DNA of 64,000 nt from the human T2T-CHM13v2.0 reference genome, Homo sapiens. The DNA lies in the NCBI RefSeq assembly GCF_009914755.1, contig NC_060945.1. One strand, given 5' to 3'. A program made the position numbers and the translations under genes. This document shows, piece after piece, positions 8,483 to 8,860 of this stretch; position 1 is the stretch's first letter, and every line of letters begins with the position of its first letter. The notes beneath the pieces were generated by a model. It did not search any database and was not told the origin of the DNA. It worked only from the letters and a program-made list of their open reading frames with translations.

Positions 8483-8860
8483 TTTCTTTCTTTCTTTCTT
8501 TTTTTTTGAGACGGAATTTCACTCTTGACGCTCAGGCTGGAGTGCAATGGCGTGATCTTGGCTCAGTGCAACCTCCGCCTCCTGGGTTCAAGTGATTCTC
8601 CTGCCTCAGCCTCCCCAGTAGCTGGGATTACAGGCGCCCGCCACCATGCCTGGCTAATTTTTGTATTTTTAGTAGAGATGGGTGCCAGGGTGTGCGGGGG
8701 CTTCATGCACAGCTTGTAGCACAGCAGCGAGATAGTGGTCCAGGCTGATGAGGCAGAGATTGAGGATGGAGGTGCTACACAGGCTGGTCTCGAACTCCTG
8801 ACCTCAGATGATCCACCTCCCAAAGTGCTGGGATTACAGGCATGAGCCACCATGTCCGAC
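8483..8860 (-). mobile_element. AluS-type element with foreign internal insert
   Basis: Alu consensus on both sides of the insert; TSD-like ctcacccaagactttc (8467-8482) / ctcacccaactctttc (8861-8876). Confidence 0.95.
8684..8779 (-). pseudogene. Degraded aminergic GPCR gene fragment (TM3-DRY-ICL2, HTR6-like) inserted in an Alu
   Basis: Reverse complement reads [16 protein letters not shown], then a frameshift, then [16 protein letters not shown]; recalled HTR6 reads [36 protein letters not shown]. Confidence 0.85.

What the first reader, a model, noticed from the sequence alone, without database searches (positions are those of the whole stretch)
8684..8779. Serotonin-receptor (HTR6-like) coding fragment captured inside an Alu, in the same orientation: candidate Alu-mRNA-Alu template-switch chimera
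Seen in sequence: in an otherwise ordinary antisense Alu, about 16 nt of consensus (GTTTCACCATGTTGGC) are replaced by ~96 foreign nt. On the minus strand these read TGT AGC ACC TCC ATC CTC AAT CTC TGC CTC ATC AGC CTG GAC CAC TAT C|TCG CTG CTG TGC TAC AAG CTG TGC ATG AAG CCC CCG CAC ACC CTG GC, which translates as [16 protein letters not shown] / [16 protein letters not shown]. Established knowledge: this is the class A GPCR TM3-DRY-ICL2 signature. It best matches my recollection of HTR6 ([36 protein letters not shown]), a gene on another chromosome, with a ~11-nt deletion. Most amino-acid differences (R>H, R>C twice, P>L, A>T) are CpG-deamination type, as expected for a CpG-rich exon that became methylated after insertion. 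The insert is co-oriented with the Alu, lies within the Alu's TSD, has no TSD or poly-A of its own, and contains CAGCCTGG and CCTGGC, which match the Alu junction sequence. Inference: either the L1 reverse transcriptase switched Alu RNA to GPCR mRNA and back during insertion, or a later microhomology-guided templated repair patched a break in the Alu. The insert lies about 255 bp upstream of a HUNK exon, so HUNK pre-mRNA carries a short decayed antisense copy of it.
Basis: partly seen in the sequence, partly recalled or inferred. Interest (0 to 1): 0.88.

Follow-up and report, generated by a model that had tools for sequence, protein, structure and literature searches.

The report
HTR6 exon fragment patched into Alu
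An old Alu repeat in a HUNK intron carries a decayed 96-base copy of part of the serotonin receptor 6 gene, most likely a scar of ancient DNA break repair, which is a known kind of event and shows no sign of function here.

Summary
A minus-strand AluS-like element (8483-8861, flanked by a 13-of-15 target-site duplication) has 15-16 consensus positions replaced by 96 nt (8684-8779). In the whole T2T assembly this stretch matches only one other place, chr1:19489458-19489564 (E 3.8e-18). That place lies in exon 1 of HTR6: its frame is 100% identical over 239 aa to PDB 5-HT6 receptor chains. The copy differs from HTR6 by 12 of 96 aligned bases (11 transitions; 7 of 8 donor CpGs hit) and by an 11-nt gap. 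It is as decayed as the Alu around it, so the event is tens of millions of years old. Both fusion points are blunt (0-1 nt overlap). There is no poly-A, no duplication of its own, and no second copy of the chimera. This anatomy matches published "interrupted transposon with captured distant DNA" events (1,136 human cases, 254 with a donor on another chromosome) and class 2 templated sequence insertions. I favour post-insertion break repair (0.6) over a double L1 reverse-transcriptase template switch (0.2). The deciding test, orthologous Alus in other primates, could not be run here. It is a new member of a known kind, of low to moderate interest.

The parts
8468..8482 (.). Target-site duplication of the Alu, copy next to the A-tail
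   Evidence: 13 of 15 bases identical to 8862-8876.
8483..8507 (-). A-rich tail of the Alu, interrupted by G (read as T-rich with C on the + strand)
   Evidence: aligns with the A-tails of 22 other Alus.
8508..8683 (-). 3' part of the Alu: end of the left monomer, linker and right monomer
   Evidence: Alignment to the majority consensus of 22 window Alus. Together with the 5' part: 6 of 17 consensus CpGs kept, 15 of 222 non-CpG mismatches.
8684..8779 (-). 96-nt decayed copy of HTR6 exon 1 (codons about 110-145: TM3, DRY motif, second intracellular loop), sense on the minus strand. An 11-nt gap relative to HTR6 falls between 8733 and 8732.
   Evidence: The only non-self match in the assembly is chr1:19489458-19489564, E 3.8e-18. 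That locus encodes a frame 100% identical over 239 aa to PDB 8jlz_R, the 5-HT6 receptor. 12 of 96 mismatches and an 11-nt gap.
8780..8861 (-). 5' part of the Alu (left monomer, full-length 5' end), with a 10-nt deletion between 8818 and 8817
8862..8876 (.). Target-site duplication of the Alu, copy next to the Alu 5' end

Best explanation
After an AluS-type element had inserted into this HUNK intron, its left monomer suffered a double-strand break in the germ line, tens of millions of years ago. The break was sealed by end joining with a filler: a roughly 107-nt copy of HTR6 exon 1. The filler was either a reverse-transcribed piece of HTR6 RNA or a copy or fragment of the chr1 DNA. About 15-16 nt of Alu were lost at the ends. 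The patch then decayed as neutral, methylated DNA. It lost 7 of 8 CpGs and acquired, or was made with, an 11-nt gap that breaks the frame. It has no function. Shown: the structure, the donor, uniqueness in the genome, blunt junctions, and decay equal to the Alu's. Inferred: that the Alu was there first, and the nature of the filler (RNA-derived or DNA).
For: The Alu halves are of one element and in register, with only 15-16 consensus positions missing. The insert has no poly-A, no poly-A signal and no duplication of its own. The donor is intact at its own locus, and the insert occurs nowhere else. Overlap at the fusion points is 0-1 nt. These features meet the criteria of Pace et al. 2009 (PMC2671141): the same TE on both sides, consensus positions within 30 bp, an insert of 50 bp or more found at one other place, and breakpoint deletions of 1-15 nt. 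They found 1,136 such human cases, 254 with donors on another chromosome, of which they take about 41% to be repair events. The features also meet the class 2 templated sequence insertions of Onozawa and Aplan: no TSD, no poly-A, microdeletion (PMC5110952). Blunt-by-blunt joining is common when filler DNA seals primate breaks: 30 of 90 numts (PMC2567098). Pace et al. put the peak rate of such events at 30-42 Mya, alongside the AluSx burst, so an old patch in an old AluS is expected.
Against: The insert is no younger than the Alu. CpG loss is 7 of 8 against 11 of 17, and non-CpG mismatch is 5 of 80 against 15 of 222. A rough likelihood puts its age at 0.6 or more of the Alu's age, and favours 'same time' over a uniformly later time by about 3.6-4.8 fold. 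This is overstated, because the Alu values were taken as exact and repair rates were higher early. The insert is co-oriented with the Alu and reads HTR6 in the sense direction, which repair gives only half of the time. No insert-free orthologue has been seen, because none could be looked for. If the filler came from RNA, HTR6 is by my recollection a brain-restricted, low-level transcript, an unlikely germ-line donor (not tested). If it came from random DNA, a coding exon is an unlikely draw (about 1% of the genome; recalled figure).
Confidence: 0.6

Rival explanations
1. Double template switch by the L1 ORF2 reverse transcriptase while this Alu was being inserted. cDNA synthesis on the Alu RNA reached the end of the left monomer, moved to an HTR6 mRNA (or a fragment of it) and copied about 107 nt. 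It then returned to the same Alu RNA 15-16 nt further on and finished the Alu. The product is an Alu-mRNA-Alu sandwich within one target-site duplication.
For: All three parts are in one orientation, with HTR6 in the sense direction. The whole lies inside one TSD with one A-tail. The insert is as decayed as the Alu, and the likelihood peaks at equal age. The donor is exonic. Double switches are documented: tripartite chimeras in mouse and a fungus, and two unproven human ones (PMC2104539). The 11-nt gap inside the copy could be a further short jump of a poorly processive enzyme. A gap of 8 nt or more is rare by background, seen in 2 of 22 window Alus of about 282 nt each.
Against: Known L1-driven chimeras are end-to-end: the 5' partner sits upstream of a 5'-truncated 3' partner. 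None that I read has the first template resuming in register. mRNA partners are very rare: 17 mRNA/L1 chimeras in a genome-wide catalogue, most explained by trans-splicing of first exons at splice sites. Here an internal 107-nt piece of coding sequence is used, with no splice site. The enzyme would have had to leave the HTR6 RNA long before its 5' end. No overlap guides either switch (0-1 nt). My order-of-magnitude estimate of expected numbers (inference, not computed) puts such sandwiches well below one per genome, against about one for exon-derived repair patches in Alus.
Confidence: 0.2
2. Replication-based or synthesis-dependent template switching on DNA (SDSA or MMBIR-like). A 3' end in the Alu invaded the HTR6 locus on chr1, copied about 100 nt and came back, guided by the CCTGGC(C) that the Alu and HTR6 share. 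A 4-nt CCTG duplication and a 12-nt skip in the Alu were part of the same stuttering event. This is a sub-type of post-insertion repair and is counted apart from the 0.6 only for its mechanism.
For: The last six bases of the insert equal the six Alu consensus bases that begin 4 nt before the other fusion point. Two short skips of similar size, 11 nt in the copy and 12 nt in the Alu under this parse, sit in one tract. Pace et al. ascribe such events to SDSA, with microhomology of 2-9 nt and chimeric acceptors.
Against: It needs an extra 12-nt deletion exactly beside the junction. The simpler parse, a 16-nt loss with blunt joins, needs none. The 6-mer identity is not compelling: 40 of 647 segments of 107 nt drawn from HTR6 exon 1, and 101 of 3001 from the whole 3.1-kb locus, have a terminal 6-mer somewhere in the 56-nt Alu junction region. 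Most SDSA-type events use donors within 5 kb (824 of 1,136).
Confidence: 0.1
3. The chimera arose earlier, in a source Alu gene or as a ligated chimeric RNA, and this locus is one retrotransposed offspring.
For: One TSD encloses everything. RNA ligation before TPRT is a proposed route to U6/L1 chimeras.
Against: No other copy exists. The 96-nt insert has 2 matches in the assembly, itself and HTR6. The 61-nt stretch across the 5' junction has 8 matches, of which only the locus itself spans the junction; the other 7 match only the Alu side. These searches score only the best candidates, so they are lower bounds, but a source copy should have been the best candidate.
Confidence: 0.04
4. Assembly artefact or chance resemblance.
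For: None found.
Against: E 3.8e-18 against the whole genome. The copy is 12.5% diverged from HTR6, with 11 of 12 changes being transitions and 7 at donor CpGs. That is the pattern of long residence in the genome, not of a chimeric read, which would be near-identical to HTR6.
Confidence: 0.01

Closest known systems
Repair-mediated duplications in interrupted transposable elements (Pace, Sen, Batzer, Feschotte 2009, PLoS Genet, PMC2671141; I read section 6 in full and passages found by term)
   Same: A TE split by an insert of 50 bp or more that does not align to the TE consensus. The TE consensus positions on the two sides lie within 30 bp. The insert is found at exactly one other place in the genome. 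There is a small deletion at the breakpoint and no poly-A. 254 of their 1,136 human cases have the donor on another chromosome, and exons were among the donors.
   Different: Most of their events are proximal (824 within 5 kb) and show microhomology. This one is interchromosomal, blunt at both ends and taken from inside a coding exon.
Class 2 templated sequence insertions (Onozawa and Aplan 2016 review, PMC5110952; I read parts 1-2 of 4)
   Same: A sequence templated from a distant region, no TSD of its own, no poly-A or cryptic poly-A signal, and a microdeletion at the acceptor. Experimental inserts were 73-414 bp. The donor stays intact, and transcribed sequences are enriched among donors.
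   Different: Those are polymorphic or experimental and recent. This one is ancient and presumably fixed. An RNA origin cannot be tested here, because the donor segment lies within one exon.
Numt-mediated double-strand break repair in primates (Hazkani-Covo and Covo 2008, PMC2567098; passages only)
   Same: Filler DNA sealing a chromosomal break by end joining. Blunt-by-blunt joins are frequent (30 of 90), and small deletions occur in 41 of 90.
   Different: The filler here is nuclear coding sequence, not mitochondrial DNA. A 15-16-nt loss is at the large end of their range.
L1-mediated chimeric retrocopies: U6/L1, Alu/L1, mRNA/L1 and tripartite chimeras (Law and Burns 2026, PMC13174262: abstract, sections 12, 18, 20 and passages; Gogvadze et al. 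2007, PMC2104539: passages)
   Same: Parts in the same orientation, one TSD around the whole, one A-tail, and parts of equal apparent age.
   Different: In those, the parts are joined end to end and each RNA appears once. Here the same Alu appears on both sides of the foreign piece, in register. The foreign piece is a short internal stretch of a coding sequence, not a small RNA, a first exon or a 5' end.

Membership tests
Repair-mediated duplication / captured DNA in an interrupted TE (Pace et al. 2009) | Same TE family and orientation on both sides, consensus positions within +/-30 bp | tested here: met
   Both sides align to one Alu consensus on the minus strand; 15-16 positions are missing.
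Repair-mediated duplication / captured DNA in an interrupted TE (Pace et al. 2009) | Insert of at least 50 bp that does not align to the TE, found at only one other place in the genome | tested here: met
   96 nt with 2 matches in the assembly, self and chr1 HTR6. The reciprocal search with HTR6 exon 1 finds the insert as its best non-self hit.
Repair-mediated duplication / captured DNA in an interrupted TE (Pace et al. 2009) | No hallmarks of retroposition of the insert itself (poly-A/T of 5 or more, own TSD) | tested here: met
   Longest A-run is 2; no AATAAA or ATTAAA. Flanks are not duplicated, apart from a possible 4-nt CCTG under one parse.
Repair-mediated duplication / captured DNA in an interrupted TE (Pace et al. 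2009) | Breakpoint signature: deletion, filler or microhomology | tested here: met
   A deletion of 15-16 nt is present. Microhomology is 0-1 nt and there is no filler. Their listed deletion range is 1-15 nt.
Repair-mediated duplication / captured DNA in an interrupted TE (Pace et al. 2009) | Empty (uninterrupted) orthologous TE in an outgroup | not testable with these tools
   No primate genome other than the window's own assembly is held.
Class 2 templated sequence insertion (Onozawa and Aplan) | Templated from a distant region, donor retained; no TSD, poly-A or poly-A signal; end-joining features | tested here: met
   microdeletion.
Class 2 templated sequence insertion (Onozawa and Aplan) | Derived from RNA by reverse transcription | not testable with these tools
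   The donor segment lies wholly inside HTR6 exon 1, so no splice junction can tell RNA from DNA.
L1 template-switch chimeric retrocopy | Parts co-oriented, whole chimera within one TSD with a 3' A-tail | tested here: met
L1 template-switch chimeric retrocopy | End-to-end architecture: 5' partner upstream of a 5'-truncated 3' partner, each RNA present once | tested here: not met
   The Alu is full-length at its 5' end and resumes in register after the insert. The architectures described are end-to-end.
L1 template-switch chimeric retrocopy | All parts arrived at the same time | tested here: inconclusive
   Equal decay, but with 8 CpGs and 5 non-CpG changes the lower bound is only about 0.6 of the Alu's age.
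Processed pseudogene (retrocopy) of HTR6 | Copy reaching the mRNA 3' end with poly-A and its own TSD | tested here: not met
   Only codons about 110-145 are present; no poly-A. No other HTR6-derived DNA exists in the assembly. The remaining hits of exon 1 are weak (66-81%) and cover the TM3 region of other loci, which from recalled map positions I take to be paralogous amine receptor genes.
Functional class A GPCR coding sequence | Open frame spanning seven transmembrane segments | tested here: not met
   About 32 codons, with the frame broken by the 11-nt gap. Stop-to-stop frames are 44 and 103 aa, running into Alu sequence.

The most novel reading that the evidence does not exclude
The locus is a fossil of a double template switch by L1 ORF2p during Alu insertion: Alu RNA, then an internal piece of a rare mRNA, then back to the same Alu RNA in register, perhaps with further 11-12-nt jumps. 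This 'sandwich' architecture is absent from the catalogues of L1 chimeras I read. It would mean the enzyme can keep hold of its first template while sampling another RNA.
Probability: 0.2. Interest if true: 0.55.

Novelty: new member of a known kind. Interest (0 to 1): 0.3.

Why it matters
As break repair, it is one more dated example of the germ line patching a break with a copy of distant sequence, here coding sequence. It can serve as a clean teaching case: the Alu consensus gives the pre-event sequence to the base, and the donor gene gives the filler to the base. It does not affect HTR6 and there is no sign that it affects HUNK. If it were a template switch, it would extend what is known of L1 ORF2p's behaviour on its templates, but a single old locus could only suggest that. 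The more useful outcome is the test it points to. The orientation of exon-derived inserts relative to their host Alu across the genome would separate reverse-transcriptase switching from repair for the whole class.

Tried and rejected
- Other donors: the insert matches only HTR6. The weaker hits of HTR6 exon 1 elsewhere (5 loci, 66-81% identity) do not match the insert.
- Protein-level check: the 32-aa read-through finds 5-HT6 receptor chains first, but only at E 0.0015-0.0028 over 19 residues, with dopamine D3 next. The DNA match is the real evidence.
- Microhomology-guided joining: rejected at the fusion points (0-1 nt). The CCTGGC coincidence was tested against random HTR6 segments and found unremarkable: 40 of 647 for 6-mers and 17 of 647 for 7-mers.
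- Propagated chimeric source Alu: no second copy.
- Processed pseudogene, coding potential and assembly artefact: rejected.
- Dating the insert against the Alu: done, but too few sites to separate 'same time' from 'early'. One search had wrongly counted 16 insert bases as Alu mismatches; one search corrects this.
- A genome-wide scan for other Alus with an insert at this site, using a gapped pattern, was not accepted by the tool and was dropped. How common such sandwiches are, and how they are oriented, stays open.
- Earlier findings of this scan were not open.
- Print searches: 'HTR6'+'HUNK' gave 7 papers, none on this by title or abstract. 'HTR6 pseudogene / 5-HT6 pseudogene / HTR6P' gave 1 unrelated paper. 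Terms for chimeric or interrupted Alu with template switching gave nothing describing an Alu-mRNA-Alu sandwich.

Full report
**What is there.**
- On the minus strand, 8483-8861 is an Alu with an A-rich tail interrupted by G.
- A 15-nt target-site duplication flanks it: 8468-8482 against 8862-8876, 13 of 15 identical.
- I aligned it with 22 other near-full-length Alus of the window. These were the loci hit on both arms among the 60 blastn hits; about a dozen partial hits were left out.
- Against their majority consensus, the element is colinear up to 8780 and again from 8683.
- The A at 8683 may be the last of a run of A in the consensus, so the loss is 15-16 nt.
- None of the 22 other Alus has anything comparable at this site. 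Only one has any insertion of 5 nt or more (18 nt).
- By recalled diagnostic positions the element looks like an AluS (Sx-like). No curated repeat library was available to test this.

**Where the 96 bases come from.**
- A search of the whole assembly (3.1 Gb, 24 contigs) with the insert returns two places: itself and chr1:19489458-19489564, + strand, E 3.8e-18.
- That chr1 stretch lies in a 250-codon open frame. Its first 239 residues are 100% identical to PDB chain 8jlz_R, the 5-hydroxytryptamine receptor 6.
- The donor corresponds to about residues 110-145: the end of TM3, the DRY motif and the second intracellular loop.
- The reciprocal search with the 753-nt exon-1 frame finds the chr21 insert as its best non-self hit (E 3e-17). 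It also finds five weaker hits (66-81%) to the TM3 region of other loci. From recalled map positions I take these to be paralogous amine receptor genes; they were not named by any tool.
- The donor segment lies entirely inside exon 1, so it holds no splice junction that could tell an RNA template from a DNA template.

**State of the copy.**
- Donor and insert align over 107 donor bases with one 11-nt gap, falling between window 8733 and 8732, and 12 mismatches in 96 aligned positions.
- Eleven of the 12 are transitions. Seven lie at donor CpGs (six transitions, one C>A).
- Seven of the donor's 8 CpGs are hit and one survives.
- Three adjacent differences at donor positions 98-100 would fit a donor that once had two adjacent CpGs, one since lost in HTR6 itself by a synonymous change. 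This is inference.
- The gap breaks the frame, and no frame of note runs through the region.

**Age.**
- In the Alu flanks, 6 of 17 inferred consensus CpGs survive (2 more are in a gap).
- 15 of 222 non-CpG positions differ from the window consensus (6.8%). This is an upper bound, since some are subfamily differences.
- The insert has 1 of 8 CpGs surviving and 5 of 80 non-CpG differences (6.3%).
- Fisher tests give p = 0.36 and 1.0 (which corrects, where 16 insert bases had been counted as Alu mismatches).
- A rough likelihood, taking the Alu values as exact, peaks at equal age. Its 5% quantile is about 0.6 of the Alu's age, and it favours 'same time' over a uniformly later time by 3.6-4.8 fold.
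- That factor is overstated. Pace et al. report repair-mediated duplications at 18.3 per Myr at 30-42 Mya, falling to about 3 per Myr in the last 18 Myr, so repair events are themselves concentrated early.
- The event is therefore tens of millions of years old and cannot be separated in time from the Alu's arrival with these data.
- This also disposes of an assembly artefact.

**Junctions.**
- At the Alu-5'-side junction, the last Alu base and the donor's preceding base differ. So do the first donor base and the next Alu consensus base.
- The same is true at the other junction.
- Overlap is 0-1 nt and there is no filler.
- The insert has no A-run over 2 nt, no poly-A signal and no duplication of its own.
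CCTGGC forms its last six bases.
- CCTGGC equals the Alu consensus beginning 4 nt before the opposite junction. This permits a second parse: a 4-nt CCTG duplication, a 6-7-nt microhomology and a separate 12-nt Alu deletion.
- That parse needs an extra deletion exactly beside the junction.
- The 6-mer identity is not rare: 40 of 647 segments of 107 nt from HTR6 exon 1 have a terminal 6-mer in the 56-nt Alu junction region. So do 101 of 3001 segments from the whole 3.1-kb locus.
- I keep the simple parse.
- Deletions of 8 nt or more are uncommon in the window's Alus (2 in 22). The 11-nt gap in a 107-nt copy may therefore date from the event itself, a skip by the copying enzyme, rather than from later decay. 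This is a suggestion only.

**Uniqueness.**
- The 61 nt across the 5' junction occur once. The 7 other matches cover only the Alu side.
- There is no family of such chimeras and no candidate source copy.

**Mechanism.** Two families of explanation fit.

*(a) Later repair.* A break in the resident Alu was sealed with a copy of HTR6 exon 1 as filler.
- This explains for free why the Alu resumes in register with a small loss, why the insert has no retroposition marks, and why the joins are blunt.
- It is a catalogued process. Pace et al. 2009 searched for exactly this anatomy and found 1,136 human cases, 254 with a donor on another chromosome. They take about 41% of the distant ones to be true repair events.
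- Onozawa and Aplan describe class 2 templated sequence insertions with the same marks and argue for reverse-transcribed RNA as the filler.
- Numts show that blunt joins of filler DNA are common in primate evolution.

*(b) A double template switch by L1 ORF2p during the Alu's own insertion.*
- This explains the shared orientation, the single duplication and the equal age.
- But the L1 chimeras I read about are end-to-end.
- mRNA partners number 17 in a genome-wide L1 catalogue, and most are first exons joined at splice sites.
- No described case has the first template resuming in register.

*Weighing.*
- By orders of magnitude (my inference, not a computation), exon-derived repair patches in Alus are expected at roughly one per genome, and sandwiches at well below one.
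- Orientation (a factor of 2) and age (a factor of perhaps 2-3 after allowing for early repair rates) pull the other way.
- I put post-insertion repair at 0.6. A microhomology-guided DNA synthesis variant gets a further 0.1, the template switch 0.2, and a chimeric source or ligated RNA 0.04. Artefact or chance is negligible.

**Function.**
- None is indicated. The copy is neutral-looking, frame-broken, unique, and antisense to HUNK, 256 nt upstream of the exon at 9035.
- No exon is annotated there in the gene table supplied with the finding.

**Novelty and limits.**
- This is a new member of a known kind.
- I found no mention of an HTR6 fragment in HUNK or of an HTR6 pseudogene, nor of an Alu-mRNA-Alu sandwich. 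Those searches cover open-access full text only.
- The supplementary list of Pace et al., which may contain the locus, could not be opened.
- The deciding comparison with other primates could not be made, because no other primate sequence is held.
- A genome-wide count of similar interrupted Alus could not be run either.

Noticed in passing
window 8817/8818 (minus-strand Alu, consensus positions 45-54): The same Alu has a 10-nt deletion in its left monomer, about 40 nt from the insert. Another Alu of the window (19743-20036) has a 6-nt deletion starting at consensus position 46. This looks like a slippage-prone spot rather than part of the event.
   Followed up: partly
window, 23 near-full-length Alus (coordinates): 19 of the 23 Alus aligned (18 of the 22 others, plus the target) lie on the minus strand, antisense to HUNK. 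This is a marked orientation bias. Partial Alus were not counted.
   Followed up: no
window 8483-8510 and about 8685-8697, + strand: On the HUNK sense strand, the Alu's T-rich tail followed by AG, and a GT-containing stretch at the start of the insert, look like a possible acceptor and donor pair for Alu exonisation. They were not scored with any splice model, and nothing is annotated there.
   Followed up: no
G000 C20:4282710-4282806, C10:114936068-114936369, C7:156246772-156246917, C5:175986518-175986585, C2:96622433-96622494: HTR6 exon 1 gives weak DNA matches (66-81%) restricted to its TM3 region at five other loci. From recalled map positions these are presumably paralogous amine receptor genes; they were not named by any tool.
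   Followed up: no
window 30563-30882: One other Alu carries an 18-nt insertion relative to the consensus. Its origin was not examined.
   Followed up: no
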